Below, piece by piece: positions 1 through 19,764 of a DNA stretch of 64,000 nucleotides. Positions within the stretch are counted from its first letter, which is position 1; each line of letters begins with the position of its first letter. The notes beneath the pieces are model-generated. The model did no database searches. It was given only the letters and a program-made list of their open reading frames with translations, and was not told where the DNA came from. Origin of the DNA: Escherichia phage vB_EcoM_G17; the sequence record MK327931.1. The stretch is one strand, 5' to 3'. Both the position numbers and the translations under genes were made by a program.

Positions 1-152
1 AGGTTACCCGCCCTTTAGCCCCCTACGCATTTTGCCATAGTCCAATCCCTTTTATTTCAAAAAAGTCAAGGGATTACCTATGCATTTTTTTAACGCATAA
101 TTTTAAAAACGCCTTGACTTTTTTCTGAATCAGTACTAGATCCCTTTACGCA

Positions 153-362
153 TTAATCCTTCGTTACGCTAACGATTATCTGTGTATCCCCGTAGTCCTG
201 CCATACTTCCACGCCATCGGTCGCCCTGGTTAGTCGTGCTGTCATCTGCTTAATGGTCTTAGGCTTTAGTGGAACCTGTTGCAGTACTGTACGCATAGCA
301 TCATTGACGTTATCATGTACGCCTGCAATAGTACCTAGAACGCTGTATACTGTATAGAACAT
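153..362 (-). CDS. hypothetical protein (69 aa)
   Basis: Track ORF; ATG at 362 preceded by SD AGGAGGG with 8 nt spacer on minus strand. Confidence 0.55.
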   Translation of the reverse strand: MFYTVYSVLGTIAGVHDNVNDAMRTVLQQVPLKPKTIKQMTARLTRATDGVEVWQDYGDTQIIVSVTKD

Positions 363-430
363 ATGTATGCCCTCCTGATATAGTTAAGGCCGCTACAAGG
401 CGGCCTATGATGTTTGGTGATGTGTAACGC

Positions 431-832
431 TTACAGTCCTAAGATAGTGCGTGCTTCGTTACGTTCCGTACACAGCTGCATGATGTGAGCAAGTAAGTCC
501 TTGCTAATGTATCCGGTGTTCATAGCTTCACGAATAGATACATCATACGCACCGAACCCCGTGCGAACGATACGCACATCATTCAGGTTAGTATTATAGA
601 TACCGCCGAGATCAACGGCTTCGAATACTACATCAACAGAATATTCATTGTTGCCATCGTGGAAGTTTTCCAGTGCAATAGTATTGGATACCGCCCAACG
701 TTTGCAGTTTCCAATGATGCGGCACTGTTCCGGTTGGATAGTACCATTACTTACAGCGTACTCCAGTGCATCTTTACCAAAAGTCCGAGCCAGTACTAAA
801 ACGTCAGCGAAGGAATTGATTGAGAAGGTCAT
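431..832 (-). CDS. hypothetical protein (133 aa)
   Basis: Track ORF 431..865 trimmed to internal ATG at 832, which has AAGGAG SD; upstream consensus promoter plus hairpin. Confidence 0.6.
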   Translation of the reverse strand: MTFSINSFADVLVLARTFGKDALEYAVSNGTIQPEQCRIIGNCKRWAVSNTIALENFHDGNNEYSVDVVFEAVDLGGIYNTNLNDVRIVRTGFGAYDVSIREAMNTGYISKDLLAHIMQLCTERNEARTILGL

Positions 833-921
833 GATAAAACTCCTTAATTTAGGAGGGAGAACCATTTCCCCCTCTCTATGTAAAACATTATACTTGATTC
901 TAAGTACTATGCAAGTACTTT

Positions 922-1254
922 TTACATTTTAATACCTGGATTCAGGTAGCGGTGAGATCCATATTCTGGATCGGTTTCGGTCCAGTACTGTAAATCGATA
1001 GTACCTTTCGCGTTAATCTTGTCTACCAGCTTATTCATCTTAGTGTATACTACGTCAGCATCGATGCGTTTAAAGCCAGTAGCTTTAGTGAAGTAGTAGT
1101 GATTTGCTTCACTATCATTAAGGATATACCGAGCACCGTTTGCAGTCTGTGCGATAATGATTGAGTATTCTACTTCCCGATCCAGACCGTCGATGAATAC
1201 AGATGAAACATTGGTACGGATGAAAGCTTTAACGATAGCGATTGAAGTACTCAT
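922..1254 (-). CDS. hypothetical protein (110 aa)
   Basis: Track ORF; SD AGGAGA 6 nt upstream; TTGACA promoter upstream. Confidence 0.6.
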   Translation of the reverse strand: MSTSIAIVKAFIRTNVSSVFIDGLDREVEYSIIIAQTANGARYILNDSEANHYYFTKATGFKRIDADVVYTKMNKLVDKINAKGTIDLQYWTETDPEYGSHRYLNPGIKM

Positions 1255-1500
1255 TTTGAATCTCCTAACTTTGTGGGCCGTCGCACCATTGCCGCCCTAC
1301 GAGATACATTATTGCAGTACTGATATACTTTGTCAATACTTTTTTTATTAATAGTTTTCACCCCACCAGCAGATAGTTACTCACCGTTATTAACTATATA
1401 TTTTAGATACACTCCTGCACCCAGTGGGCTAGTTTTTGTCTATGCGTATATAATAGCAAAGGGACTGACCGGAGTCAATCCCTTTTTTTATTCTTTTTTG

Positions 1501-1701
1501 TTAGATGATTCTCCAATCTTCTACGATCATGGTAAGATAACGGACCATCGATTCAAGTGATTCGAATTCCCGATAGTCTGCCGCTCCACCAGCGGTACAA
1601 GTACAGCCGATTAAACCATTTTGTAATTCCTTAATCTGTACATCGATAAGGTTGGCTTTAGCTTCTTTCAGTACTTCAACCAGGGCGATAGCGATAGACA
1701 T
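1501..1701 (-). CDS. hypothetical protein (66 aa)
   Basis: Track ORF; GGAG SD; promoter/hairpin module upstream. Confidence 0.55.
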   Translation of the reverse strand: MSIAIALVEVLKEAKANLIDVQIKELQNGLIGCTCTAGGAADYREFESLESMVRYLTMIVEDWRII

Positions 1702-1790
1702 AATGTTTTACTCCAAACTATTGACGGGAGAACTATTCCCCCGCTCTATGTAAAACATTATACATTACTGGTTAGTACTGTCAAATAGTT

Positions 1791-2048
1791 TTATGAAATA
1801 TCTTCGATGTAGTCGGCCCATTTCATTTTTTCAGTACTGTCAATGGCTACCGGATTATTTGGATCAAACCATTCACCATTCCCGCAATACATACCCACGG
1901 CAACGGTTTTATATCCATCCTGTGCAGTACTCCACGACATAGCACGATAGATATGGCCTTTAACTGGTTGCAATACTGGTAATGTTTTATGGTCTTCTAC
2001 GTAGGCCATAGCTTGAGGATTTACCCGATATTGTGTGAACTGTTCCAT
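1791..2048 (-). CDS. hypothetical protein (85 aa)
   Basis: Track ORF in early-gene series. Confidence 0.55.
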   Translation of the reverse strand: MEQFTQYRVNPQAMAYVEDHKTLPVLQPVKGHIYRAMSWSTAQDGYKTVAVGMYCGNGEWFDPNNPVAIDSTEKMKWADYIEDIS

Positions 2049-2124
2049 TATGTTTCCCCTTGTAGTTAGTAAAGTTATTACATCAGTACTATCAAGCTAT
2101 GTCAATAGTACTGAAATAAAACTT

Positions 2125-2349
2125 TTAGATTAGATTATTGATGCCGTTGATGGTAGACTCGCTTTCTTCTTTCTCCCATTGGCGGTAGTACTTCCATGCT
2201 TCATGATATGTGGCGATTAGTTCATCTTTTTGATCCTGAGTACATGCCAGTACTGAATCACGGTGAGCGGTTTTATAGATAGAATCGAATGATTTCTTCT
2301 CTTCTGCCAGGTTAGCTACTTCCCGCATCAGTTCATCAAAGTTAGCCAT
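2125..2349 (-). CDS. hypothetical protein (74 aa)
   Basis: Track ORF; promoter/hairpin module upstream (2350-2440). Confidence 0.55.
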   Translation of the reverse strand: MANFDELMREVANLAEEKKSFDSIYKTAHRDSVLACTQDQKDELIATYHEAWKYYRQWEKEESESTINGINNLI

Positions 2350-2416
2350 TTTATTACTCCTTTTAGTGGGGGAGGATATCTCCCCCTATGCAAAACATTA
2401 TACTTTGTTTTAGTTA

Positions 2417-2680
2417 TTATGCAAGTACTTTTTTCATATAAAGATTATATTCTACACCGCCGTAACCTTCTACGATGATATGTTTTGCGTTATCACGTTT
2501 GCACATAGTGAAACCGTTGTTGATGTGTTCTGCATTTTCCAGGGCGACATCACCGATAGCGGCACATACGGCACTAATAACAGTATTCCGCAAAGTACTG
2601 GTATCATTAGCGGTCATAGTAGTTTGCAGTACTACGTTGTCGTATACGTGTGCATTGATAGTGATTTCGATAGTGTTCAT
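2417..2680 (-). CDS. hypothetical protein (87 aa)
   Basis: Track ORF; SD AGGAGA; promoter TTGCAT-N16-TATAAT upstream. Confidence 0.6.
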   Translation of the reverse strand: MNTIEITINAHVYDNVVLQTTMTANDTSTLRNTVISAVCAAIGDVALENAEHINNGFTMCKRDNAKHIIVEGYGGVEYNLYMKKVLA

Positions 2681-2698
2681 GGTGTATCTCCTGGACTG

Positions 2699-2759
2699 GC
2701 GGGAGAACTATTCCCCCGCTCTATGTAAAACATTATACGTTAATCTAACTACAATGCAA
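2699..2759 (-). promoter_or_regulatory. sigma70-type promoter (-35 TTGCAT at 2754-2759 rc, -10 TATAAT at 2732-2737 rc) plus 5'UTR hairpin (2699-2719)
   Basis: Read directly: rc of atgcaa and attata with 16 nt spacer; imperfect inverted repeat GCGGGAGAA/TTCCCCCGC between -10 and RBS. Confidence 0.6.
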
Positions 2760-2766
2760 GTACTTT

Positions 2767-2958
2767 TTAAATTTTATTTCCGATATAGTCCGGTCTATTC
2801 TTTTCGGTCATACGCTTTGCTAATGTTTGCATATGGCTTATTGCGTTTAATGTGTCTTCCTCCAGGGATGAATCAACATAATCAGGATCATTCTTCACCT
2901 TGCAATGATTATGATAGCGTAGTACTGCCAGTACTTTTTTAACTTCTTCTACTGTCAT
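2767..2958 (-). CDS. hypothetical protein (63 aa)
   Basis: Track ORF; start overlaps stop of next gene (ATGA). Confidence 0.5.
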   Translation of the reverse strand: MTVEEVKKVLAVLRYHNHCKVKNDPDYVDSSLEEDTLNAISHMQTLAKRMTEKNRPDYIGNKI

Positions 2959-3227
2959 AATAAGTACCCCACTTCGTTAGCTTTCAGGTTAGTATCAATC
3001 ATCAGTGGATTTTTGTAGTTCACAAAACGATTAGTTTTCTCGATAGCGAATCCCATATAATCCAGCTTACTAACAGTACATTCATTCTTAAAAACTTCTT
3101 TCGCTGCATCGATGGCTGATTGCATGGATAACCGACCATCTAAATTAATGTTTCCAAATGATCCACCAGCAGAAGTAGGATTACCGTTCATATCTTTAAT
3201 GATCATAGTAGCGGAGTAGCTGGACAT
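2955..3227 (-). CDS. hypothetical protein (90 aa)
   Basis: Track ORF; promoter/hairpin upstream. Confidence 0.55.
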   Translation of the reverse strand: MSSYSATMIIKDMNGNPTSAGGSFGNINLDGRLSMQSAIDAAKEVFKNECTVSKLDYMGFAIEKTNRFVNYKNPLMIDTNLKANEVGYLL

Positions 3228-3314
3228 AATTTTGTTTCCTTTTAGTATCGGGGAGAACTATTCTCCCCTTGATGTAAACTATTATACAGTACTGATATAC
3301 TTTGTCAAATACTT

Positions 3315-3722
3315 TTATTCGCCCATATAGATTAAGTTATCATCGCCTACATAGGGATCGCAAACGTTGATTTCTTCGCAGTACTTCGTGAATACATCGC
3401 CATAGTGACCTAAACCACGATCCCAAAAACCAGTTCCGTGACCTTCGCGGGTAAGGAACAGATCATGACCAGCTTGCTCATAACCGTAATCAATAAACAT
3501 ACCGCGAACTACTTCCAGATCATTACCGTGTTTCTCAATGAAGCGAGAACATGCAATCACCGCCGCTTGACGTGCTTCATCAGATAACTCATAATCTTCC
3601 AGGTAATCGCCGTTATCATTATGTACAGTACTGAATTGCATAGCTTCAATGTAAGCTACAACCATTGCAGCATGATTTTTATCGTTAGTGATGTTCCGAG
3701 CGAGATTAGTAGTAGTAGACAT
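3315..3722 (-). CDS. hypothetical protein (135 aa)
   Basis: Track ORF; promoter/hairpin upstream. Confidence 0.6.
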   Translation of the reverse strand: MSTTTNLARNITNDKNHAAMVVAYIEAMQFSTVHNDNGDYLEDYELSDEARQAAVIACSRFIEKHGNDLEVVRGMFIDYGYEQAGHDLFLTREGHGTGFWDRGLGHYGDVFTKYCEEINVCDPYVGDDNLIYMGE

Positions 3723-3805
3723 GATTTTATTCCTTATTGTATTGGGGAGAACTATTCTCCCCTTGATGTAAACTATTATACAGTACTGATATACTTTGTC
3801 AATAC

Positions 3806-4027
3806 TTAATTACGTTTAAAATGATATGTGCCTTTATCATCCTGTACGCCCCACACTGATTTACCATCAACACCAGTGAAACCGGATTGTAATTCAATAT
3901 GGAAACCATTATTATCAACTACAAAAACTTTTTTATTTTCATCCCGATAACATTGATATTCTGAATCAACATTAAAGGCCGCATCATTCAGAAGATTGGA
4001 AGCGTAAATGCAAGTCATTGTAGTCAT
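3806..4027 (-). CDS. hypothetical protein (73 aa)
   Basis: Track ORF 3806..4102 trimmed to ATG at 4027 (MTTMTC) with AAGGA SD; the longer form would start inside the hairpin/promoter. Confidence 0.55.
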   Translation of the reverse strand: MTTMTCIYASNLLNDAAFNVDSEYQCYRDENKKVFVVDNNGFHIELQSGFTGVDGKSVWGVQDDKGTYHFKRN

Positions 4028-4248
4028 GATTTTATTCCTTATTACCAGGGAGAACCATTTCCCCCTCTCTATGTAAAACATTATACTTGATTCTAAGTAC
4101 AATGCAAGTACTTTTTATCAAATAGTTTTCAGTACTGAATACTTATATAATAGATACACTTCCGCACCCTATGGGTCAGTGAGTTATCTCTCAATGAATA
4201 TATAATAGCAAAGGGACTGACCGGAGTCAATCCCTTTTTTAATCTTTT

Positions 4249-4833
4249 TTATCGTGTTACCTTACTTGCTTCTACATCACGCTTTTTATAGTACTGATTC
4301 CAGATATTGCGGGTTAAACCGTAATCAAGTACTTTAATAAGGCCATTACGATCCTGGCCGATATTCTGTTTTCTGATATCTCTTATCGTTAGTGTTGATA
4401 ATGTATCATCAACGTGTTGTAGTGCATCAGCAAAGCGGTGCTGGCGTTCAATGGCATTACGTTTAATATTGTACTTTAATTCATTGCACGCGTTTACGTG
4501 CTTTACACTGCCTTTACTTGCAGTACTCAACCGATCCATAACGATAAACATATTATCAGGATCGCATAAATGCATATGCACCTTTGCAAAGTACTGTTTC
4601 AATTGAGGGCGGTCATAATCTAAAAAATTCCATACCTTACATTCAGTTTCATTTTGTTCTACACCCGCATCACAATTCGCGACCTTGATCACTAACCGAT
4701 CATTTAAAGCGAATACAATACGGGAAGAACCCGCACCGATGATCTCCAGACCAGCTAACCGACAAGCTGAAAGGATCTCTTTGTTGGTTTCCATTTCTGA
4801 CAGGGTACGGATGAATTTAGTATAATTACGCAT
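4249..4833 (-). CDS. minimal protein-kinase-like protein (about 194 aa)
   Basis: Motifs in translation: glycine loop IGAGSSRIVF, VIKVA lysine, catalytic-loop-like RDIRKQNIG, DFG-like IKVLDYG; start trimmed to ATG 4833 with AAGGAGA SD. Confidence 0.55.
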   Translation of the reverse strand: MRNYTKFIRTLSEMETNKEILSACRLAGLEIIGAGSSRIVFALNDRLVIKVANCDAGVEQNETECKVWNFLDYDRPQLKQYFAKVHMHLCDPDNMFIVMDRLSTASKGSVKHVNACNELKYNIKRNAIERQHRFADALQHVDDTLSTLTIRDIRKQNIGQDRNGLIKVLDYGLTRNIWNQYYKKRDVEASKVTR

Positions 4834-4864
4834 TGCATGTTCTCCTTGAGTTAATGAAACTATC

Positions 4865-5107
4865 TTACAGTACTTTACTATCAATGGCAACTACTTTTTT
4901 AACATTAACGGCGTGGATCACCTCCTTAGTGTTTTTAGTACTGAATACTTTCGCCGCCCCATTCACGACCGTGATACGATAGCGACCATTAACATCAACC
5001 ATATTAATAAAGTCCGGCGTGCTGAATGGTGTTGTTTTACATTTGAGTACTGTTAACAATTCCACCAGCGATGTAGTTTCTTTGATACGTTTTTCTAAAG
5101 TAATCAT
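4865..5107 (-). CDS. hypothetical protein (80 aa)
   Basis: Track ORF; GGGGA SD; upstream region nearly identical to that of 5166..5384. Confidence 0.55.
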   Translation of the reverse strand: MITLEKRIKETTSLVELLTVLKCKTTPFSTPDFINMVDVNGRYRITVVNGAAKVFSTKNTKEVIHAVNVKKVVAIDSKVL

Positions 5108-5165
5108 TTTGTTTTTCCCCGTGTTGGTATGTACATATAGTACTAAAACATTTGAGTACTGTCAA

Positions 5166-5384
5166 TTAGATAATATTATATTTCTTAAAATAAAATGCGT
5201 CCTGTGTTGGTTGATACTCAATGCCATTGCCGTTATTGACTTCAACTAATAAACCTTTGTCAATAAGTTTTTTAATAGTACGATACCCTTGTTGAAAATT
5301 GGTAAAATGTGAATCATTACGAAAGGTATAACCGTGCTTAACTGCTTCATCAATAGTTTTCTTTTCGATTTTAGATAATTTCAT
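5166..5384 (-). CDS. hypothetical protein (72 aa)
   Basis: Track ORF 5166..5441 trimmed to ATG 5384 (MKLSKIEKK) with GGGAGA SD. Confidence 0.5.
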   Translation of the reverse strand: MKLSKIEKKTIDEAVKHGYTFRNDSHFTNFQQGYRTIKKLIDKGLLVEVNNGNGIEYQPTQDAFYFKKYNII

Positions 5385-5437
5385 TTTGTTTCTCCCGTGT
5401 TGGTATATGTACATAGTACTAAAACATTTGAGTACTG

Positions 5438-5692
5438 TCAACGTGATATTAGTTTTATTTTCTTATTATATTGTTGGTGTTCATATAGGTTTATCTTTCC
5501 TGTGTTCTCAATTACTATTCTGTTGTTAGTGTCCACATCGATTACACGCAGTTTCCCGTTGCTTAACTTCCTTGGTAATAGGTTACCATTAATAAACTCA
5601 TTAGCAAGCTGTACGGCCTTTGTGATGATTCTCTTCGGTGCTTTATAGTGTACCCGTAAGATGTTATCTTTATATAGTTGAACCTTAATCAT
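5438..5692 (-). CDS. hypothetical protein (84 aa)
   Basis: Track ORF; hairpin GGCGGGA-N5-TCCCGCC plus T-run just upstream. Confidence 0.5.
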   Translation of the reverse strand: MIKVQLYKDNILRVHYKAPKRIITKAVQLANEFINGNLLPRKLSNGKLRVIDVDTNNRIVIENTGKINLYEHQQYNKKIKLISR

Positions 5693-5753
5693 TTTGTTTG
5701 TCCTATAAAAAAGGCGGGAACTGATCCCGCCGTGTTGTTAGTACTGCAAGTTA

Positions 5754-6149
5754 TTAGATAACCTGGCGGCGTTTACTGAATACTGTTACACGATTACCCT
5801 TACGGTCGTGTCGGATCTCTTTCTGGTTGCGAATCAGTTCACTTGGACGCTTAAGGTTTGCCAGGTGATCCGCGTGAGTCCATGCGGTGTGGTTTACCTG
5901 TACTTTGATATCAGAATCAGCGATAAACTCATCTTGTGCGTCAAGTATTGCCGCCAGCATATCCGCTCGTTTTAGTTCTGCTGCTGTCAGTACTGGCTCA
6001 GGTGAATTCACAATATCAGAGATTTCTTTGAACTGTACGGCCCAGCGTTGACCTTTCGGTGCATCTTTGCCCATGTCTTTAAATGCTGCTCCTTCCTCGC
6101 GTGCAACAATACGGGCAGCTTCACGGGTAGCGTAGAATTTAGTAATCAT
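5754..6149 (-). CDS. hypothetical protein, paralog of 17936..18202
   Basis: Shared N-terminal FATRE(A/Q)ARI and C-terminal DRKGNRVTV motifs with 17936..18202; start trimmed to MITKFY (AGGA SD). Confidence 0.6.
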   Translation of the reverse strand: MITKFYATREAARIVAREEGAAFKDMGKDAPKGQRWAVQFKEISDIVNSPEPVLTAAELKRADMLAAILDAQDEFIADSDIKVQVNHTAWTHADHLANLKRPSELIRNQKEIRHDRKGNRVTVFSKRRQVI

Positions 6150-6244
6150 GGTATACATCCTATTAGTTGAGATAGTACTACAAGTTAGAGTCTATTATAA
6201 AGTACTATCTGGGCAATGTCAAATAGTACTTTAAATGGATTCTA

Positions 6245-6568
6245 TTACATGTCTTTCTTACGTTTTACATCGTAGTATCGAACTGTAATTTCTTTGTTGA
6301 TCTCTTCCTCGATGCGGTGAATAACTTTTTCTTTCGGGTTGAAACCTATAACGGTTTCTTTAATGATCTCCAAGCCCGTGTATTCGCCTTGTGTACCGTA
6401 ACCGTATGTAAAGGTTTCGTGTCCCAGGTCTTCCCAGCGGTCGCCAATTAACGCTGACACGTAGCAAGAGTGGTAAGTATTGCCGTTCCGATCAGTCCAG
6501 CGATTAACTTTAATGTCAAAGGAGGTTACAATTTTCAGTTCTACTTTCTGGGTAAGGATCATAGCCAT
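6245..6568 (-). CDS. hypothetical protein, paralog of 12363..12686
   Basis: Both share RWTD..GNTYHSC.VS and FTYGY motifs and end VKRKKD(M/L). Confidence 0.6.
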   Translation of the reverse strand: MAMILTQKVELKIVTSFDIKVNRWTDRNGNTYHSCYVSALIGDRWEDLGHETFTYGYGTQGEYTGLEIIKETVIGFNPKEKVIHRIEEEINKEITVRYYDVKRKKDM

Positions 6569-6591
6569 TTTTATTTCTCTCTCTTTGTTAG

Positions 6592-6652
6592 GAGGGGAAC
6601 CATTCCCCTCGCTTGATGTAAACTATTATACAGTACTAAGATACTTTGTCAA
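6592..6652 (-). promoter_or_regulatory. consensus sigma70 promoter (TTGACA 6647-6652 rc, TATAAT 6625-6630 rc, 16 nt spacer) plus 5'UTR hairpin GAGGGGAA/TTCCCCTC (6592-6610)
   Basis: Read directly; representative of about 35 similar modules on the minus strand. Confidence 0.65.
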
Positions 6653-6655
6653 TAC

Positions 6656-6838
6656 TTATTTTTTGGAAAGTTTACGCATTAATTCTACGCTTTCTTGTGA
6701 ACGTTTTGCTACCTGGCAAGCTGTATGGGCAGTAAACATTTTTGTATAGTCTGACGCTTTGCCACCAAACCGAGCGGCACGTTCACGGGCACTTGGAACT
6801 AATACTATTTCTTTCTTGCAGATAGTGCACTTAGCCAT
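6656..6838 (-). CDS. hypothetical small protein (60 aa)
   Basis: Track ORF 6656..6883 trimmed to ATG 6838 (MAKCTICKK); the longer form would read through the upstream hairpin. Confidence 0.5.
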   Translation of the reverse strand: MAKCTICKKEIVLVPSARERAARFGGKASDYTKMFTAHTACQVAKRSQESVELMRKLSKK

Positions 6839-6926
6839 TTTTATTTCTCTCTCTTTGTTAGGAGGGGAACCGTTTCCCCTCACTTGATGTAAACTATTAT
6901 ACAGTACTAAGATACTTTATCAATAC

Positions 6927-7202
6927 TTAAGTATTGTAAATGTCGTGAATAGTGATAAAGTTTTTACGACCGTAAACCTGCAAATCAATATCAATGTAGT
7001 GCTTATCTAGTACATCCTCGACGCTTAACGCGGTGTCGTGGATATCTTCGTAGAATTGAGGATCTACAATCTTGCTTAAGTCATCCGGCGTTAACTTATC
7101 GTTAAGCCATTGAACCGCCTGGATATCTGCTTCACGTTTCCAGTCTTCCAGGTTAGTAGTCAGTACTTGTTCGATTTCGTTAGCTGTCAGTAGAATCCGC
7201 AT
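6927..7202 (-). CDS. hypothetical protein (91 aa)
   Basis: Track ORF. Confidence 0.55.
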   Translation of the reverse strand: MRILLTANEIEQVLTTNLEDWKREADIQAVQWLNDKLTPDDLSKIVDPQFYEDIHDTALSVEDVLDKHYIDIDLQVYGRKNFITIHDIYNT

Positions 7203-7517
7203 TTTTATGTTTCCTTATCAGTGGTTGATGTAAGTATTATACTCGTTTACTTTCTATTGTCAAACTATTTTATCAGGGGAGTTTTTCGTATGTCTTACTC
7301 CTGGACTACTTAACAGGGTTACTTATTTCGTTCCCCGTCCTGATGTAAAACATTATACTTGATTCTAAGTACAATGCAAGTACTTTTTTAAAAATAGTTT
7401 TCAGTACTAGCCACCAGCAAACAATAGATACATTTATGCACCCTGTGGGCTGATTTGTTTCTATGCGTATATAATAGCAAAGGGACTGACCGGAGTCAAT
7501 CCCTTTTTCAAATATTT

Positions 7518-7667
7518 TTAAACTTCTTTCGGGTTGCGATAGGTGATAGCGTTCGGGTACATTTGTTTAATGTTATTCCATGCCTGGTTAACATTATAAC
7601 CACTTGAGCGAATCAGTTGGTTACTACCGACACCTTGAAACACTACTTCGAATAAGAATTCTTTCAT
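7518..7667 (-). CDS. hypothetical small protein (49 aa)
   Basis: Hand-translated ORF below track cutoff (MKEFLFEVVFQGV...); start overlaps stop of upstream gene (ATGA). Confidence 0.35.
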   Translation of the reverse strand: MKEFLFEVVFQGVGSNQLIRSSGYNVNQAWNNIKQMYPNAITYRNPKEV

Positions 7668-7837
7668 GCTTTCACCTCGCTATCTGCTTTACCTTTACGC
7701 CAGGACATTACTAATTGTTCGCGTTGCCATAAGTCGAGTGATACAAAAAGTTTTGCGGTATCACTTTTAGGATACTCGCCAGTAGTACCTAACCGATAAA
7801 ACAGATCTTTCAGTACTGATAATTCTACTTGAATCAT
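7664..7837 (-). CDS. hypothetical small protein (57 aa)
   Basis: Hand-translated ORF (MIQVELSVLKDLFYRLG...); ATGA overlaps on both sides. Confidence 0.35.
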   Translation of the reverse strand: MIQVELSVLKDLFYRLGTTGEYPKSDTAKLFVSLDLWQREQLVMSWRKGKADSEVKA

Positions 7838-7926
7838 TTTATTACTCCTGATTGCGTTAATACTTCTACTATTGCATGAATGATCATAAGTACAGCTAAC
7901 ACAATAATCATCGGATTCATTTGCAT
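7834..7926 (-). CDS. hypothetical hydrophobic peptide (30 aa)
   Basis: Hand-translated (MQMNPMIIVLAVLMIIHAIVEV...); AAGGAG SD 8 nt upstream. Confidence 0.3.
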   Translation of the reverse strand: MQMNPMIIVLAVLMIIHAIVEVLTQSGVIK

Positions 7927-7943
7927 AAGCTGTACTCCTTATA

Positions 7944-8156
7944 TTAATCTTTCAGCCAATGATCTTGAATGAATTTTTCACCGTATCCCTGTTTCATGGA
8001 TTCTAACAGGCGTTCGCGGTGAGCGGCGGCATATTGCTCAGTACTATGCGTTACGCCAGGCTGATAACGTGATACCCCATCCGGTCCGATGTATTGTACA
8101 TCCCACGGTTTTTCGTTAGTATCAGACCATTTACGAACGATTAGTTGACCTTGCAT
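7944..8156 (-). CDS. hypothetical protein (70 aa)
   Basis: Track ORF; promoter/hairpin upstream. Confidence 0.55.
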   Translation of the reverse strand: MQGQLIVRKWSDTNEKPWDVQYIGPDGVSRYQPGVTHSTEQYAAAHRERLLESMKQGYGEKFIQDHWLKD

Positions 8157-8239
8157 TTTTCTTTCCTCTCAGTGGGGAGAATCATTTCTCCCCTTCATGT
8201 AACTTATTATACAGTACTAGATTATCTTGTCAATAGTTT

Positions 8240-8563
8240 TTATTCACCTTGTTTGAATTTAGTTTTCTCCATTGATTCCATGATTGCAACCAATACGCTG
8301 TGGATCTCGCTTAACGCGGAATCACTGAAAGCATTAATGAATAGTCGATCATTCTCGCGAATATTTTTAATGTACTTTTCAGCAGTAGTTGCGAATTCAT
8401 TCAACGGTAGATCAAATGCTTTATCCCATGATGGATGGCGTAATTGTAACAGTACTGGATTATCACGATCACCAGGGGAAAACGTACCAGTGATGAAACA
8501 TACGCCCGGAATACTTTCGAACTGGCAACGGACTTCCTTTGTGATAGTAGTATGAATGTACAT
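8240..8563 (-). CDS. hypothetical protein (107 aa)
   Basis: Track ORF. Confidence 0.55.
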   Translation of the reverse strand: MYIHTTITKEVRCQFESIPGVCFITGTFSPGDRDNPVLLQLRHPSWDKAFDLPLNEFATTAEKYIKNIRENDRLFINAFSDSALSEIHSVLVAIMESMEKTKFKQGE

Positions 8564-8590
8564 TTATTGTTATCCTCTATTAAATTAATA

Positions 8591-8779
8591 TTACAGTTTA
8601 TGAATCAATTCTTTATCTAAGCGATAGCGTACATTATTAATAGTAACGGCATTGTTTTTAATGCTACGCTGTACAGGTCCACCAGCAATAACAAATGTTG
8701 CTTTATTACCCCGAACAATGATAGCACTTCCAGGATTACCGAAATCATCTTGTACTAAAATACTTGATAAGTTTTCCAT
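8591..8779 (-). CDS. hypothetical protein (62 aa)
   Basis: Track ORF 8591..8785; second ATG (MENLS) has better SD spacing. Confidence 0.5.
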   Translation of the reverse strand: MENLSSILVQDDFGNPGSAIIVRGNKATFVIAGGPVQRSIKNNAVTINNVRYRLDKELIHKL

Positions 8780-8860
8780 TTTCATTTCCTCTTAGTAGGG
8801 GAAGATGTTTCCCCTTGATGTAAGTACTATAACACTACTGGATAGTACTGTCAATACTTT

Positions 8861-9118
8861 TTATCTCATAGATCTATGCCAACAATTACGCGGGGGACGT
8901 TTAAAAGTACTATCATGATCCTCCTGGCAAGTTATGCAGTACTTACATCCCTTAACAGCCTGGCGGCGATTCTCAGGGATTTTATCGCCACAGTCGAGGC
9001 AATGTATCAGTGATTCTATTTGTGCGTTAATTTGCTTTCTAGCGTGGTTTACGGCGGCCTGAATCACTGCGTTAATCTCGTCTTGTTCGGCCCCGTCTTT
9101 CGCGAATCCTACAGCCAT
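8861..9118 (-). CDS. TraR/DksA-family C4 zinc-finger protein
   Basis: Motif CLDCGDKIPENRRQAVKGCKYCITCQ matches the C-x2-C-G-x2-IPE-x-RR...C-x2-CQ signature of the TraR/DksA family. Confidence 0.65.
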   Translation of the reverse strand: MAVGFAKDGAEQDEINAVIQAAVNHARKQINAQIESLIHCLDCGDKIPENRRQAVKGCKYCITCQEDHDSTFKRPPRNCWHRSMR

Positions 9119-9315
9119 TATTTTAACCTTTTTCTATCATTAATTAATGCTTTCAGTACTATACTAATAACTTGCAATGATTCATCAATGACTATAAAAT
9201 TATTTTCTTTCATTAGATGATAGTTACCATTGATATTATATTCTAACGAGTACTGTTTACGTTTAATTTTTGATAATGTTTCTATTTGTTTTTGTACTGA
9301 TTTCATGCTAATCAT
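9118..9315 (-). CDS. hypothetical protein (65 aa)
   Basis: Track ORF; start shares a base with stop of upstream gene. Confidence 0.5.
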   Translation of the reverse strand: MISMKSVQKQIETLSKIKRKQYSLEYNINGNYHLMKENNFIVIDESLQVISIVLKALINDRKRLK

Positions 9316-9420
9316 TGTTAAACGTCCTGTAACGCATTCTAACGAGATAAACGGTTTAGTACTGGCATTGTATAGGGTAATGAATTAAAGCCCACCAGCG
9401 TTAACCAGTGGGCTATAATC

Positions 9421-9564
9421 TTACATCTTGCGGATAATCTTAACAGTATCTTTCACCGATTTACCGTCTTGCTGGCATTGCTCGATCATTGCGTATTGTT
9501 CTGCGGTCAGATCCTCGCCAGTTTTTGCCAGTACTGCGTCGATGAATGAATCCAGTGCGATCAT
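9421..9564 (-). CDS. hypothetical small protein (47 aa)
   Basis: Hand-translated (MIALDSFIDAVLAKTGEDL...); SD AAGAGAGA; promoter module upstream. Confidence 0.4.
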   Translation of the reverse strand: MIALDSFIDAVLAKTGEDLTAEQYAMIEQCQQDGKSVKDTVKIIRKM

Positions 9565-9663
9565 TTTATTTCTCTCTTAGGTTAAGTTAACTACTGTTTA
9601 TAAAACTTATTATACAGTACTATCAAACGTTGTCAATATATTTAATAGTACTGGTAATATATT

Positions 9664-9843
9664 TTAGCGGTAATCGTCGTATGCTTTATTCACCTGGCGA
9701 ATGTAACTTTCAAAGGCTTCGTCTACCGTTTCATACTCCCGAACATAATCACCATAGGAAACTACATACATACCTTTTTGATCTTCAAACGTCATGATGA
9801 TAGAATCCAGACCAACGATTTCAGTTTTTGCGATGATAGCCAT
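9664..9843 (-). CDS. hypothetical small protein (59 aa)
   Basis: Hand-translated (MAIIAKTEIVGLDSI...); promoter module upstream at about 9850-9910. Confidence 0.4.
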   Translation of the reverse strand: MAIIAKTEIVGLDSIIMTFEDQKGMYVVSYGDYVREYETVDEAFESYIRQVNKAYDDYR

Positions 9844-9936
9844 TTTTTTAATTCCTTAGTAGTGTAGTTGATAAAACTTATTATGCCAGTACTATCAATC
9901 ATTGTCAATAGCTTTGATAGTACTGTGATAATATTT

Positions 9937-10149
9937 TTAGTTAATGATAGTCAGTGTAAAATTGTAATCACCACAGCGATATAGCACGTTATTCCCAAAT
10001 GTTCCAACTAATCGCACATCACACAAAACGCCGGTTTTTTCTTTTACTTCCTTGATACTTGTAACTCCTGTAATATCTTTATTAAAGTATTCATGATCTG
10101 AAAATAAAACTTGTTTTGCATTTTTTAATTTCGACCGGATATTAGCCAT
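9937..10149 (-). CDS. hypothetical protein (70 aa)
   Basis: Track ORF; promoter/hairpin upstream. Confidence 0.55.
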   Translation of the reverse strand: MANIRSKLKNAKQVLFSDHEYFNKDITGVTSIKEVKEKTGVLCDVRLVGTFGNNVLYRCGDYNFTLTIIN

Positions 10150-10244
10150 TTTGTTTTCTCTCTGTTAGTGGGGAGAAGTTTTTCTCCCCTTGATGTAAAC
10201 TATTATACAGTACTATAATCTATTGTCAAACTATTTTTTTTATA

Positions 10245-10586
10245 TTATTCGAAATCTTCTGGACCGGACTGATAATCATCTTCACCGTATGCACTTTCTA
10301 ACTTCTCGCCAGTGTGGTCATCAGTTAGTGAGTCATCCTCATAGTTCACGTCTACGCCAGTGATGTAAAACTGGCTATCGTCTGGATCATTGAAATTAAT
10401 TTTCTGTATGTTTACAATAACTGTATTGATGCCCAGGACACCGCCATCAGCCGTTACAAAGTACTGATATTTTTCACAACCGCCTGAATTGAAACCGTAA
10501 TTAATTTCGGCCCGACCATCATTTAAACGCAGTGCCTGAGCGATGATTTCATTTTCAAAGTTAGATTGAGCAATTGAGATAGTCAT
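10245..10586 (-). CDS. hypothetical acidic protein (113 aa)
   Basis: Track ORF; promoter/hairpin upstream. Confidence 0.6.
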   Translation of the reverse strand: MTISIAQSNFENEIIAQALRLNDGRAEINYGFNSGGCEKYQYFVTADGGVLGINTVIVNIQKINFNDPDDSQFYITGVDVNYEDDSLTDDHTGEKLESAYGEDDYQSGPEDFE

Positions 10587-10796
10587 GATTTGTTTCCTTA
10601 TTACCAGGGGAAACCGTTTCCCCTTTCGATGTAAAACATTATACGCTTATTGAGATAGTTTGCAAGTACTTTTTAAAAATAGTTTTCAGTACTCAAACAT
10701 TATACAATAGATACACTCCTGCACCCTGTGGGCTAGTGAGCTATCTCTCAATGAATATATAATAGCAAAATGGCTGACCGAAGTCAACCACTTTTT

Positions 10797-10934
10797 TCAT
10801 TTATTTTTAGCTTTTAGAATCGCCGCCTTTCGTGTCATTCCTTGTTTGATGTACTCCTTTACTTTCGCTTTTTTAGCGTTTACCTTGTCTGCTTTCGTTT
10901 TAGGAGTACTGTAAATTATACCGTTAGGATTCAT
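10797..10934 (-). CDS. hypothetical lysine-rich small protein (45 aa)
   Basis: Hand-translated; TAAATG junction with upstream small ORF. Confidence 0.3.
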   Translation of the reverse strand: MNPNGIIYSTPKTKADKVNAKKAKVKEYIKQGMTRKAAILKAKNK

Positions 10935-11024
10935 TTAAATCACCATAAAGAATAGATAGGTTACTAACAACGCCGCGATCAATGCACCGACCAGGGCCGA
11001 ACTATAGTAAGCTAATGTTTTCAT
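10935..11024 (-). CDS. hypothetical membrane peptide (29 aa)
   Basis: Hand-translated (MKTLAYYSSALVGALIAALLV...); hydrophobic. Confidence 0.3.
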   Translation of the reverse strand: MKTLAYYSSALVGALIAALLVTYLFFMVI

Positions 11025-11173
11025 TTTTTAGCCTGAAAATAATGTTTAATTTGTGCGGCGGTCAATGCACAATTACGCAGGAAGTTTTCTGTATAACTGC
11101 GGCGAGTACTGAAAGAGAATTGACCTTTGCCGTTGCCGATAGTAACATCAAACCGAGCGTTGTATTGTTTCAT
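11021..11173 (-). CDS. hypothetical small protein (50 aa)
   Basis: Hand-translated (MKQYNARFDVTIGNGKG...); promoter/hairpin upstream. Confidence 0.35.
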   Translation of the reverse strand: MKQYNARFDVTIGNGKGQFSFSTRRSYTENFLRNCALTAAQIKHYFQAKK

Positions 11174-15071: not shown

Positions 15072-15313
15072 TTTCTTATTCCTTAGTTACCAGGGGAACC
15101 GCTCCCCTATGCAAAACATTATACGCGTTTAAAAACTAATAGCAAGTATTTTAATAAAAAGTATTTGGAAAATAATTGTTGACAAGTGCATCCAGTACTG
15201 GCATAATTACTACATCAAGACGAAACAGTCACTAACCCACCGGGTGCATAGATCCGTCTATTAAATGATTCAGTACTGAAAAAGTAACGGGGAGTTATTA
15301 TCTCCCCGCGTTG

Positions 15314-15535
15314 TTATTTTGTAAGGTATAAACAGAAGTCACCTTTATTTGCTACGCCGCCAGTGTAACGCGATGAATAGTTAGAAATATCTTGTACTTC
15401 TGCTATTACCAGTGTATCATCATTCATTTCGTCGCAGAAGCAAACGGCTGGATCTTTTACGCCGATATTGTCGGCATGTTCCCGCATAGATTTAACCAGT
15501 GCTTCCAGTTGAGAAAGAGTAGTGATATTAGCCAT
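15314..15535 (-). CDS. hypothetical protein (73 aa)
   Basis: Track ORF 15314..15565 trimmed to MANITTL (GAGGA SD). Confidence 0.55.
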   Translation of the reverse strand: MANITTLSQLEALVKSMREHADNIGVKDPAVCFCDEMNDDTLVIAEVQDISNYSSRYTGGVANKGDFCLYLTK

Positions 15536-17191: not shown

Positions 17192-17617
17192 TTTGTAACC
17201 CTCATTCAGTAGTTGATGTAAGTATTATACGCTTTTAAAAACATTTGTCAAACTATTTTATCAGGGGAGTTTTTCGTGTGCCTTACTCCTGGGCTACTTA
17301 ACGGGAAGTTACTTATTTCGTTCCCCGTCCTGATGTAAAACATTATACGCCTTTAAACATAGTTTGCAAGTACTTTTTAAAAATAGTTTTCAGTACTGAA
17401 TATTTAAAAAAGTATTGACAGCATTATCAAGTACTGGCATAATATACCCCATGACAACAGCTAACCCACCGGGTGCACAATTGTAACTATACTAAACTAC
17501 TTTTTCTATAGATACACTCCCGCACCCTATGGGCTACGGCTTATCTGCCAATGAATACATTATGCCAGTACTGACAAAATAAGTCAATACCGGCAATTGT
17601 AAAGATTTGTAAACTGC

Positions 17618-18983: not shown

Positions 18984-19764
18984 CGTATTAATCTCTTTTA
19001 AAGTGTAGCGGGAAGTGTTCCCGCTCTCGATGTAAAACATTATACGCCTTTAAACATAGTTTGCAAGTACTTTCTACATGTACTTTTAAAATAGTTTTCT
19101 TTCTATATAGGGGAACTATCATTCAGTACTATTATTCAGTACTGAATCAACCAAATCACTACTACACCCCATAAAACGGCCTCAGACGCATTCTAACGCA
19201 TTAATACACCTAAGCTATACATTTGCACCATTCCAATCATTCCAGGGCTTTACGGGCCGTTTAAACGCGTTAAATTATTTTCAATTATTTTGTTTTTAGC
19301 TATTGACTCAGTACAGAAAAAGCGTATAATTACTACATAGACGCGAGAAAGCGGAAACCCCAGAGGGTGCGGAATTACGCCCAAAATTCAAGATATAAAA
19401 AAAGGATACACTCCCGCACCCTAGCAGGTAAACGCACTTTCTCAGTACTGAAATATAGTACCATAGTCCGGCCCAGGATAGCAAGCAAATTAATTAAAAC
19501 TTTTTTGCTTCCAGGGTATTGCTTTATTTTTTCAGTACTGTATAATAGTTCCATCAAGTCGAGAAAGACTCAAGCCCACCGGGTGCATAGTTACGCCCAA
19601 AATTCAGTACTGAAAAAATTTTTAAAAATATCCGTCCAGGCCGTTGACATTGCCCCCAGTTTATAAGATAATGATTCCAGATTCAGAAAAATCTAACTCC
19701 AGATACTGCGGGGAAACTATCCCCACGCGGTAGGGGAACTATTGGAAAAAACAAAATAAAATTT

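What the first reader, a model, noticed from the sequence alone, without database searches (positions are those of the whole stretch)
1400..1440. Conserved CCCACYGGGTGCA element 20-35 nt downstream of promoters, in both orientations
A motif of about 30 nt with core CCCAC(T/C)GGGTGCA (rc TGCACCC(G/A)GTGGG) occurs at least 10 times, always shortly downstream of a promoter on the same strand. Minus-strand copies: about 1405-1430, 4155-4185, 7440-7465, 10722-10748, 17508-17535, 19410-19435, each after a hybrid-cassette promoter. Plus-strand copies: about 15225-15245 (after TTGACA-N17-CATAAT at 15180-15210), 17455-17475 (after promoter at 17420-17450), 19355-19375 and 19575-19590. Several drive no ORF. 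Consistent placement in the first 40 nt of short transcripts suggests a family of small RNAs, an attenuator or antitermination site, or replication-priming transcripts.
Basis: seen in the sequence. Interest (0 to 1): 0.75.

Follow-up and report, generated by a model that had tools for sequence, protein, structure and literature searches.

The report
Jumbo-phage terminal-repeat small RNA motif
The repeated CCCAnnGGGTGC element is real: it is the core of an apparently undescribed, about 55-nucleotide structured RNA, found only in the terminal repeats of one group of giant enterobacterial phages, that sits at the very start of transcripts from strong host-type promoters; its function is unknown.

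Summary
The window is Escherichia phage Sharanji, an Asteriusvirus jumbo phage. Bases 1 to about 20,685 are its direct terminal repeat (DTR).

**Copies.** All lie in the DTR, and none lies in the other 43 kb. Eight have a strong sigma-70 promoter call ending 27-35 nt upstream on the same strand.

**Family.** The same module occurs about 10-12 times per DTR in Mimasvirus, Alcyoneusvirus and Eneladusvirus relatives. I collected 128 copies, 120 of them unique. It is absent from Rfam, and pattern scans of other viral contigs and of 100,044 bacterial species genomes gave only chance-level matches.

**Anatomy, 5' to 3':**
- TSS (+1 A).
- P1 hairpin: 48 different stems with clear compensatory changes, and an A-rich loop.
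- UAR linker.
- CCC-loop-GGGU (P2).
- A 3' segment YRYCY that can pair with the same GGGUG instead (P3). P2 and P3 exclude each other.

Reliance on G·U pairs and the fixed strand orientation point to RNA rather than DNA.

**Transcript ends.** Lone antisense copies end in intrinsic terminators, giving RNAs of about 100 nt. In one copy P3 plus U7 is itself a terminator. 38% of copies form convergent pairs.

**Verdict.** Most likely these are autonomous immediate-early small-RNA modules with a bistable core. The function is unresolved. The main rival is a put/nut-like or attenuator leader.

The parts
1393..1452 (-). Copy 1, the one at the finding's coordinates. Weak P1 (UAG-ACAAAAA-CUA), then CCC-ACU-GGGUGC, then P3 GGGUGCA-GGAG-UGUAUCU. 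Followed by a Chi site (1363-1370), a second promoter (1308-1336) and gene gp054.
   Evidence: CM hit 57.3 bits, E=4.4e-12; sequence; Chi
1450..1485 (-). Hybrid terminator/promoter driving copy 1. The hairpin AAAGGGATTGACTCCGGTCAGTCCCTTT contains the -35 TTGACT; 17-nt spacer; -10 TATTAT.
   Evidence: Scored both as a promoter (10/12) and as a terminator
4140..4200 (-). Copy 2. P1 UGAG-AGAUAA-CUCA, then CCC-AUA-GGGUGC, then P3.
   Evidence: CM 62.7 bits
4202..4237 (-). Hybrid terminator/promoter of copy 2
7414..7473 (-). Copy 3. No convincing P1 (A-rich leader). A Chi site lies at 7411-7418 just downstream.
   Evidence: CM 52 bits
7471..7506 (-). Hybrid terminator/promoter of copy 3
10697..10757 (-). 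Copy 4. P1 UGAG-AGAUAG-CUCA.
   Evidence: CM 59.5 bits
10759..10794 (-). Hybrid terminator/promoter of copy 4
15179..15322 (+). Complete lone antisense small-RNA unit. Promoter TTGACA-N17-CATAAT (15179-15207), motif copy 5 (15211-15271), CAGUACUGAAAA, then intrinsic terminator GGGGAG-N7-CUCCCC plus a U-rich tail (15288-15308). Predicted RNA about 105 nt. No ORF.
   Evidence: nearly identical (99% column identity over 243 columns) in phage vB_Ec-M-J
17415..17500 (+). Copy 6 with its promoter: the plus-strand member of a convergent pair
17498..17587 (-). Copy 7 with its promoter: the minus-strand (gene-sense) member of the same convergent pair. GGGTGC-to-GGGTGC spacing is 56 nt.
19303..19394 (+). 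Copy 8 with its promoter: the plus-strand member of the terminal convergent pair, about 1.3 kb from the inferred left genome end
19392..19451 (-). Copy 9, the minus-strand member of the terminal pair. Its P3 (AGGGUGCGGGAGUGUAUCCU) is followed by U7 and is scored as an intrinsic terminator (19403-19422). Predicted RNA about 50 nt.
19550..19610 (+). Copy 10: a lone plus-strand copy pointing toward the genome end. Promoter TTGCTT-N16-TATAAT with TG.

Best explanation
Each copy is a self-contained module for a short, non-coding, immediate-early RNA.

**Shown.**
- A strong sigma-70-type promoter lies upstream. It is presumably used by host RNA polymerase as soon as the terminal repeat enters the cell.
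- The transcript starts at an A. Within 3-8 nt comes a small hairpin P1 with an A-rich loop (GCGAAA, GAGAAA or AGAUAA).
- Next comes a UAR linker, then the conserved core.
- In the core, the near-invariant GGGUG can pair backwards with CCC (hairpin P2, loop of 3-4 nt). Alternatively it can pair forwards with a YRYCY segment 8 nt downstream (hairpin P3, 5-7 bp with a tetraloop).
- The core is therefore a two-state RNA element.

**Inferred.**
- The transcripts are ended in one of four ways:
  - by P3 plus a U-tract;
  - by an intrinsic terminator 45-60 nt further on;
  - by the facing promoter of a convergent pair;
  - by the next tandem promoter.

  Ends of the last two kinds are speculative. 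No terminator is detectable in most gene-sense copies, which may instead read through into the downstream gene.
- This would give abundant RNAs of about 50-110 nt from about 20 gene copies per genome (10 per repeat, two repeats).
- The RNA acts as RNA, most likely in trans. The constant core would be presented to a protein or RNA partner during host takeover. The partner is unknown.
For: **RNA-level selection.**
- P1 has 48 distinct stems with compensatory changes: 68 double-change cells against 26.9±3.4 in shuffles (0 of 500 shuffles reach the observed value), 85% paired against 24-58% in slid controls.
- The same holds on a structure-blind MAFFT alignment.
- P2 shows CCU..AGG double changes in independent copies.
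- The five core P3 pairs are 95-100% pairable in two independent sets. The 3' strand varies almost only by transitions: 47 transition cells against 5 transversion cells.
- P3 and the closing pair of P2 rely on G·U, so they exist only on the promoter-sense strand.

**Autonomy from genes.**
- Copies occur in both orientations. By my count from the coordinate tables, about 24 convergent pairs account for about 48 of 128 copies. Spacing is fixed at 56 nt between cores in Sharanji and CBB.
- Copies are not syntenic with particular genes across genera.
- In the copies with readable context, every gene-sense copy is followed by a separate promoter for the gene.

**Defined short units.**
- Window 15179-15322 and K64-1 copies 8664- and 1283- each have promoter, motif and intrinsic terminator.
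- Copy 19421- terminates at its own P3.

**Distribution.**
- 10 of 10 copies lie in the DTR and none in the other 43 kb. The same holds in CBB, Yersinia and Serratia phages.
- There is no host counterpart in 298 Gb of genomes.

**Precedent.** The related jumbo phage PA5oct makes two very abundant ncRNAs from its DTR, seen by RNA-seq (PMC7318152). They lack this motif.
Against: - No transcript data exist for this phage clade.
- Only a minority of copies have a recognisable 3' end. Most gene-sense copies have no terminator before the next promoter and could simply be long 5' leaders.
- The full-length lone RNA is not unusually stable (z = -1.34).
- P2 and P3 are marginal thermodynamically: mean pairing probabilities 0.45 and 0.19.
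- P3 has no double compensatory changes, because its 5' strand never varies.
- No partner protein was identified. The conserved DTR proteins are all of unknown function.
- No target complementarity was tested against the host genome.
Confidence: 0.4

Rival explanations
1. Cis-acting leader that controls the elongating polymerase. One version is a put- or nut-like processive antitermination signal loaded at the start of each insulated transcription unit. The other is a factor-controlled attenuator in which P2 is the antiterminator and P3 the terminator. Either would set how far immediate-early transcription reads into the downstream genes, or into antisense.
For: - The element sits at the extreme 5' end of the transcript, as HK022 putL does. 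putL is about 70 nt, has two stem-loops and begins at +2/+3 just downstream of PL (PMC9378689).
- Four copies follow directly on a terminator that is fused to their promoter, so transcription is stopped and restarted with the element.
- Internal terminators exist downstream, at 15309, 14433, 13697 and 5731 on the minus strand.
- P2 and P3 share the GGGU strand, as attenuator hairpins do. P3 is followed by at least 5 U in 9 nt in 27 of 118 copies, and in copy 19421- it is called as a terminator.
- A -10-like TANNNT starts at the last P3 base, or 2 nt later, in about one third of copies each. This recalls the sigma-dependent pause element of putL.
- The P1 loops (GNGAAA) loosely recall boxB.
Against: - About 40% of copies point away from genes or face another copy. 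Lone antisense copies are followed by a terminator within about 50 nt and by no gene.
- Genes downstream of sense copies always have their own promoter.
- No boxA or ops sequence occurs in any of 118 copies.
- Three quarters of copies have no U-tract after P3.
- No N-like, Q-like or NusG-like protein was recognised among the conserved DTR proteins.
Confidence: 0.25
2. 5'-end stability or processing signal. The structured 5' domain would protect immediate-early transcripts from 5'-end-dependent decay (RppH, RNase E), or mark them for a phage or host endonuclease, without any further regulatory role.
For: - Nearly all other early genes in the repeat also start with ACAU followed by a 5' hairpin (GGGGAG-N7-CUCCCC) a few nt from the TSS. 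P1 may be the same device.
- The fixed distance from the TSS is kept across different promoter types.
- GGAG, the T4 RegB target, lies in or at the edge of the P3 loop in many copies. The RegB link rests on my own knowledge.
Against: - A stabiliser explains P1 but not the near-invariant CCC/GGGUGC core across four genera.
- It does not explain copies that have no downstream gene.
- GGAG is absent from many copies, including most of the K64-1/RaK2 lineage.
Confidence: 0.12
3. DNA-level or replication role. Promoter-proximal transcripts would prime or open replication origins (T4 ori R-loops, ColE1 RNA II/RNA I-like convergent pairs). Alternatively the motif would be a protein-binding DNA site.
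For: - Convergent promoter pairs have transcription starts about 112 nt apart (inferred from the 56-nt core spacing). This recalls the ColE1 RNA I/RNA II geometry, a resemblance from my own knowledge.
- A G-cluster is followed by AT-rich DNA.
- One pair sits about 1 kb from the genome end in every genus.
- These phages have a T4-like replisome (PMC5259590).
Against: - Covariation in P1 and dependence on G·U indicate a folded single strand of fixed polarity, not a duplex site or an RNA-DNA hybrid.
- CACCnGGTG symmetry is present in only some copies.
- Ten or more origins per repeat is implausible.
- No origin-specific feature was found.
Confidence: 0.08
4. Passive passenger of mobile promoter cassettes. 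The modules would be PeSL-like terminator/promoter repeats that spread and homogenise by recombination, and the transcribed motif would have no function of its own.
For: - The hybrid terminator/promoter (A5G3-loop-C3T3 plus a sigma-70 promoter) matches the PeSL description in T4-like phages (PMC4122927).
- Three window copies share a 100% identical promoter hairpin.
- The P3 loop is AGGAG in two Sharanji modules and AUAAG in both orthologous vB_Ec-M-J modules, which suggests gene conversion.
Against: - Within one genome the copies differ widely, yet they keep P1 through compensatory changes (48 stems) and keep the core through four genera. That is purifying selection, not recent copying.
- Promoter types differ between copies while the transcribed element stays.
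Confidence: 0.07

Closest known systems
HK022 put RNAs (putL/putR), cis-acting antitermination RNAs
   Same: Phage-encoded. Transcribed by host RNA polymerase from early promoters. putL begins at the very 5' end of the transcript, is built of two stem-loops, is tens of nt long and needs no ORF (PMC9378689).
   Different: - put is about 70 nt with long stems and an RNA triplex, at two copies per genome, always upstream of operons.
- Here the hairpins are 3-7 bp, there are about 10 copies per repeat, and 40% are antisense or in convergent pairs.
- No sequence comparison with put was possible, and no functional evidence exists.
Lambda nut sites (boxA + boxB) and rrn antiterminators
   Same: Promoter-proximal RNA with a small hairpin carrying a purine-rich loop, next to a conserved segment.
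   Different: No boxA sequence in any copy. P1 loops are 6-7 nt, not a GNRA-like pentaloop. No N-like protein was found.
PeSL composite terminator/promoter cassettes of T4-like phages
   Same: An A-run, G3, loop, C3, T-run stem-loop fused to a near-consensus sigma-70 early promoter. Repeated in plastic regions full of small ORFs (PMC4122927, PMC2839356).
   Different: In the passages I read, PeSLs are defined by the promoter and stem-loop only. The conserved transcribed RNA core described here is not mentioned, and only 4 of 10 window copies use such a cassette.
Enterobacterial trans-acting small RNAs with intrinsic terminators (Hfq-type architecture)
   Same: Own promoter, conserved 5' region, AU-rich stretch, then a terminator hairpin with a U tail, in the lone copies (about 100 nt).
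   Different: About 10 paralogues with the same core. The core is largely base-paired. Most copies lack a terminator. Hfq binding and targets are untested.
PA5oct DTR ncRNA001/002
   Same: Abundant ORF-less transcripts from the long terminal repeat of a related jumbo phage, detected by RNA-seq (PMC7318152).
   Different: They are 236-451 nt long, and the covariance model finds no similarity (best hit 11.5 bits, E=0.24).

Membership tests
Any Rfam 15 family | Covariance-model match at the gathering score, or a suggestive sub-threshold match at the motif positions | tested here: not met
   No match at gathering score in 64 kb. At E<=5 on bases 1-21,500 there are four weak matches, none at a motif copy.
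tRNA / tmRNA-like element | Cloverleaf or tmRNA detected by ARAGORN | tested here: not met
   0 genes in the window
Lambda-type nut site | boxA sequence (CGCUCUUA / UGCUCUUUAACAA) | tested here: not met
   0 of 118 copies contain GCTCTT or variants
Lambda-type nut site | boxB: 5-bp stem with a GNRA-like pentaloop, bound by an arginine-rich N protein | tested here: inconclusive
   P1 is a covarying stem of 3-5 bp, but its loops are 6-7 nt (GCGAAA, GAGAAA, AGAUAA). No N-like protein was recognised. Binding is not testable here.
RfaH ops element | GGCGGTAG core on the non-template strand of the leader | tested here: not met
   0 of 118 copies
HK022 put RNA | Two stem-loops of about 70 nt just downstream of an early promoter | tested here: inconclusive
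   The position at the 5' end and the two-hairpin layout are similar. Size and stem lengths differ. No put sequence or model was available for comparison.
HK022 put RNA | Acts in cis on RNA polymerase (beta' zinc-binding domain) to suppress termination | not testable with these tools
   Needs in vitro transcription or genetics
Transcription attenuator (terminator/antiterminator switch) | Two mutually exclusive hairpins sharing one strand | tested here: met
   GGGU pairs with RCCC (P2). GGGUG pairs with YRYCY (P3; 91% and 86% of cells paired against 32-67% in slid controls).
Transcription attenuator (terminator/antiterminator switch) | The downstream hairpin is an intrinsic terminator (stable stem plus U-tract) | tested here: not met
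   Only 27 of 118 copies combine local P3 energy <= -3 kcal/mol with at least 5 U in the next 9 nt. Window copy 19421- is one of them.
PeSL terminator/promoter cassette | A-run/G3-loop-C3/T-run stem-loop combined with a sigma-70 early promoter | tested here: met
   Met for 4 of 10 window copies (1485, 4237, 7506, 10794), and for copies in CBB and K64-1. It describes the promoter, not the transcribed motif.
Terminator-ended trans-acting small RNA | Own promoter, no ORF, intrinsic terminator | tested here: met
   Met for window 15179-15322(+) and 19392-19451(-), and for K64-1 copies 8664- and 1283-. Not met for most gene-sense copies.
Terminator-ended trans-acting small RNA | Detected transcript, chaperone binding, base-pairing targets | not testable with these tools
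   No transcriptome exists for this phage clade

The most novel reading that the evidence does not exclude
The module is a new kind of phage RNA device. It would be a tiny bistable RNA, made in about 20 gene copies from the first DNA to enter the cell. It would either reprogram host RNA polymerase in cis (a miniature put-like element that also drives antisense shut-off of early genes), or act as a high-copy decoy that neutralises a host RNA-binding or defence protein in the first minutes of infection.
Probability: 0.2. Interest if true: 0.85.

Novelty: new variant of a known kind. Interest (0 to 1): 0.68.

Why it matters
Rak2-like jumbo phages (Asteriusvirus, Alcyoneusvirus, Mimasvirus, Eneladusvirus) are being isolated widely, and several of the isolation papers consulted here present such phages as therapy or biocontrol candidates. 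Their early, host-takeover phase is essentially unknown. In this window, all 50 annotated genes of the roughly 20-kb terminal repeat are 'hypothetical protein'.

This element is the most conserved non-coding feature of that region.
- It has about 10 copies per repeat.
- Its 6-nt core is almost unchanged across four genera, while everything around it diverges.

It marks promoters likely to be among the first used after DNA entry. It also gives a concrete, mutable handle (P1, P2 and P3) for asking how these phages organise immediate-early transcription.

If it proves to be a polymerase-modifying RNA or a decoy, it would add a new class to a very short list of such phage RNAs. As a family with clear covariation, it could be proposed to Rfam.

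Tried and rejected
- **tRNA or tmRNA:** none found.
- **Known RNA family:** none, even at E<=5.
- **Duplex DNA operator:** the CACCnGGTG symmetry holds in only some copies, and every copy has fixed polarity relative to its promoter.
- **Pairing of the 3' segment with the P1 loop (AGAUA/UAUCU):** it works only for the AGAUAA-loop class. The 3' segment does not covary with the loop type.
- **Mini-ORF starting after GGAG:** start codons and frame are not conserved. The Y-R-Y variation is not a codon pattern.
- **CsrA-type GGA hairpin:** GGA is absent from many copies, including most of the K64-1/RaK2 lineage.
- **Phage-type promoter:** the TAACCCTATAGGG of Eneladusvirus copies resembles T3/T7 promoters. 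I set this aside because the published CBB and PA5oct analyses describe reliance on host polymerase with phage sigma factors (PMC5259590, PMC7318152), and the other genera have CCCACAGGG.
- **N4-type DNA hairpin promoter:** the 3-bp stem is too short. This judgement rests on my own knowledge.
- **Consensus elemental pause (G-10, Y-1, G+1) at U55/G56:** positions fit, but +1 is G in only 57% of copies, and the pause does not explain YRYCY.
- **-10-like element after P3:** present in only about one third of copies per register.
- **Homology to PA5oct DTR ncRNAs:** none.
- **Protein partner:** ten DTR proteins conserved across genera gave only 'unknown function' plus one ParE-like domain.
- **Host counterpart or prophage copy:** 3 chance-level hits in 298 Gb.
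- **CRISPR-repeat mimicry (I-E, I-F) and ToxI-like repeats:** compared from memory only; no resemblance. Not tested computationally.

Full report
**1. Where the window comes from**

Megablast places window 1-20,000 at 100% identity on Escherichia phage Sharanji (OR545507.1, positions 15,778-35,777). Sharanji is a 350-kb Asteriusvirus jumbo phage.
- Sharanji has a direct terminal repeat (DTR) of 20,668 bp (PMC11895373).
- In the close relative vB_Ec-M-J the DTR is annotated, and its left end maps to about window 20,685.
- So window 1 to about 20,685 is the DTR. Its small genes lie on the minus strand and read inward from the left genome end.

**2. The observation**

The motif count is far above chance.
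- CCCACYGGGTGCA with up to 1 mismatch occurs 7 times against 0.04 expected.
- Looser matching recovers the degenerate copies.

A covariance model (R1) built from 10 Sharanji and 12 Pectobacterium phage CBB copies finds exactly 10 copies in the window, with E-values from 1e-13 to 2e-6. There is none between 20 and 64 kb. GGGTGC itself occurs only 13 times in 64 kb.

Eight copies have a promoter call with at least 10 of 12 consensus matches whose -10 box ends 27-35 nt upstream on the same strand. Two have good -10 boxes but poor -35 boxes.

Two small corrections apply. Only four of the six minus-strand copies use the hairpin-containing 'hybrid' promoter. The conserved element is about 55 nt long, with CCC and GGGTGC as its invariant parts.

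**3. A family across genera, and nowhere else**

The promoter-plus-motif cassette is found at 71-76% identity in related jumbo phages:
- Klebsiella phages RaK2, K64-1 and Muenster;
- Cronobacter phage GAP32;
- Pectobacterium phage CBB;
- Serratia phage BF;
- Yersinia phage fHe-Yen9-03;
- Erwinia and Salmonella jumbo phages.

In the records that annotate terminal repeats (Muenster, fENko-Kae01, CBB), the match lies within them.

R1 finds 12 copies in CBB, 11 in the Yersinia phage, 9 in K64-1 and 11 in Serratia BF. All lie in the first 21 kb or less of records that start near the genome end, and in CBB all lie inside the annotated repeat.

An exact-pattern scan of 2.9 million IMG/VR contigs returned 32 stretches.
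- The model confirmed copies only in genomes of 345-378 kb (GAP32, RaK2 and five uncultured phages) and in one 109-kb fragment.
- Stretches from 121Q, BF and CBB were not re-searched with the model.
- The four stretches on other contigs were not confirmed.

A scan of one genome for each of 100,044 bacterial and archaeal species gave 3 hits in unrelated taxa, which is chance level.

Rfam 15 has nothing at these sites, even at E<=5. The CBB and Sharanji papers do not mention the motif, and no transcriptome exists for this clade.

In total I collected 128 copies, 120 of them unique.

**4. Anatomy (alignments A3 and A4)**

From 5' to 3':
- The -10 box, then a start at the A of CAT/ACAT.
- After 3-8 nt, hairpin P1: 3-5 bp, 48 different stems, with loops GCGAAA (29), GAGAAA (17), AGAUAA (10) and AGAACAA. 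A minority of copies has only an A-rich stretch here.
- A linker ending in UAR.
- P2 = R-CCC-(ACA, AUA, AGA, UAUA...)-GGG-U.
- G and C, completing the core. GGGUGC is exact in 100 of 118 copies.
- A purine-rich loop of 4-5 nt (GAGA, GGAG, UAAA).
- U, one variable base, then Y-R-Y-C-Y and AU.

**5. Evidence that it is RNA**

*P1 and P2.*
- On A3, 85% of cells pair. Double-change cells number 68 against 26.9±3.4 in shuffles (0 of 500 shuffles reach the observed value). Slid controls pair at 24-58%.
- The structure-blind MAFFT alignment A2 gives the same answer: 31 against 14.8±2.8, 0 of 500.
- P2 is almost invariant, but CCU..AGG double changes occur in independent copies.

*P3.* The YRYCY segment can pair with GGGUG.
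- 91% (A3) and 86% (A4) of cells pair, against 32-67% when slid.
- These five columns vary almost only by transitions (47 transition cells against 5 transversion cells), unlike their neighbours.
- Column 55 is U in 52 of 53 copies and can pair with the purine at column 50, extending the stem.
- Because GGGUG never varies, P3 has no double compensations. It is well supported but not proven.

*P2 against P3.*
- The two hairpins use the same G's and so exclude each other.
- Local energies average -2.8 kcal/mol for P2 and -4.1 for P3.
- In the full 61-nt context the mean pairing probabilities are 0.45 and 0.19.

*Strand.* P3 and the closing pair of P2 depend on G·U, which becomes C·A on the other strand. 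Every copy with readable context is co-oriented with a promoter. This points to a folded transcript, not a duplex DNA site.

**6. Context**

*Gene-sense copies (1422, 4169, 7443, 10726).*
- Each follows a terminator whose stem contains the -35 box: AAAGGGATTGACTCCGGTCAGTCCCTTT, then GCTATTAT.
- After 60-90 nt comes a second promoter (AGTACTTGCA-N16-TATAAT).
- Then come the standard early leader (ACAUCAAGGGGAG-N7-CUCCCC, then the ribosome-binding site) and a gene.
- The same layout holds in CBB and K64-1. The downstream genes are not orthologous between genera.

*Lone antisense copies.* These are complete ORF-less units.
- Window 15179-15322(+) has promoter, motif, CAGUACUGAAAA and an intrinsic terminator. 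It is nearly identical in vB_Ec-M-J.
- K64-1 copies 8664- and 1283- are built the same way.

*Copy 19421(-).* Its P3 is followed by U7 and is scored as a terminator. 27 of 118 copies have such a U-rich tail.

*Convergent pairs.*
- By my count from the coordinate tables, about 24 convergent pairs hold about 38% of all copies.
- The GGGTGC-to-GGGTGC spacing is exactly 56 nt in both Sharanji and CBB. A second class sits about 17 nt wider.
- One pair lies about 1 kb from the left genome end in Sharanji, CBB and Serratia BF, and near the record start in the Yersinia phage.

**7. Interpretation**

*What is shown.* This is a family of structured RNA elements under purifying selection. It sits at the 5' end of transcripts from strong sigma-70 promoters and is confined to the DTRs of one jumbo-phage clade.

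*What is inferred.* The modules are autonomous small-RNA genes rather than leaders of particular genes. The reasons are:
- both orientations occur;
- there is no synteny with particular genes;
- downstream genes have their own promoters;
- some copies have defined terminators.

The bistable core would be the functional part, binding a protein or an RNA. Abundant DTR ncRNAs in the related phage PA5oct (PMC7318152) make this plausible, although they are not homologous. I put this reading at 0.4.

*Main rival (0.25).* A cis-acting leader, either put/nut-like antitermination or a P2/P3 attenuator.
- For: the 5'-terminal position, as in putL (PMC9378689); the stop-and-restart arrangement at hybrid terminators; and the shared-strand hairpins.
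- Against: the many antisense and paired copies; the lack of boxA or ops; and the lack of a U-tract in most copies.

*Lesser rivals.*
- A 5' stabiliser or processing mark (0.12).
- A replication primer or other DNA-level role (0.08).
- A passive passenger of PeSL-like recombining cassettes (0.07; PMC4122927).

**8. Novelty**

Phage small RNAs and promoter-proximal regulatory RNAs are known kinds. This family is not in Rfam or in the literature I could search. It combines an unusual set of features: about 10 paralogues per terminal repeat, a two-state core, and fixed-spacing convergent pairs. I file it as a new variant of a known kind. Interest is about 0.68. Experiments, not further sequence analysis, will decide its function.

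Noticed in passing
whole window, e.g. 4130-4137, 15193-15200, 17391-17398: The palindrome-centred AGTACTG (core AGTACT, often CAGTACTG) occurs 260 times against 9.1±3.2 expected, about 28-fold. It is found on both strands, in genes and between them. It is fused to -35 boxes (AGTACTTGCA, AGTACTTGAC), sits just before extended -10 boxes (cAGTACTGtATAAT), and lies 25-35 nt after GGGTGC in most motif copies, also in CBB and K64-1. Its role is unknown. It could be the site of a DNA-binding or DNA-modifying protein.
   Followed up: partly
1363, 1586, 3163, 5062, 7411, 8679, 9392, 13594, 20064 (minus); 20076 (plus): The E. coli Chi sequence GCTGGTGG occurs 14 times in the window against 0.57 expected. 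Nine are on the minus strand inside the terminal repeat, and one on the plus strand about 600 bp from the inferred left genome end. The orientations would suit RecBCD entering from either physical end of the virion DNA. Two Chi sites lie inside motif modules.
   Followed up: partly
1458-1485, 4210-4237, 7479-7506, 10767-10794 (minus): Composite terminator/promoters. A 12-bp terminator stem (AAAGGGATTGACT...AGTCCCTTT) contains the -35 box of the next promoter. Three copies are 100% identical. The arrangement resembles the PeSL cassettes of T4-like phages and is conserved in CBB and K64-1.
   Followed up: partly
most intergenic regions from 866 to 18620 (minus), e.g. 3228-3314, 8157-8239, 10150-10244: Most early genes in the repeat have their own sigma-70 promoter and a stereotyped leader. 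It reads ACAUCAAG, then the hairpin GGGGAG-N7-CUCCCC, then ACUAA, then the ribosome-binding site. This is a 5' hairpin a few nt from the start of every transcript.
   Followed up: no
13676-13697 and 14412-14433 (minus): Two strong terminators, AGCCCAC-CTTAAACA-GTGGGCT followed by T6, are preceded by AGTACTGAATCACT. They share CACTAGCCCAC with the linker and 5' half of the motif. They may be relics or relatives of the module.
   Followed up: no
5438-5692 (minus), gp066: An 84-aa protein with a ParE-like toxin domain (PF24732, E=4.6e-11), conserved in the terminal repeats of CBB and K64-1. No obvious antitoxin was examined.
   Followed up: no
19041-20933 and 21126-22645: Two long ORF-poor stretches (1.9 and 1.5 kb) flank the inferred genome terminus at about 20,685. 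The first is dense in AGTACTG and holds three motif copies and two facing Chi sites.
   Followed up: no
window 1393-1452 and 10697-10757 compared with L001 (vB_Ec-M-J) 6421 and 16105: The P3 loop is AGGAG in both Sharanji modules and AUAAG in both orthologous vB_Ec-M-J modules. This suggests gene conversion between copies within a genome.
   Followed up: no
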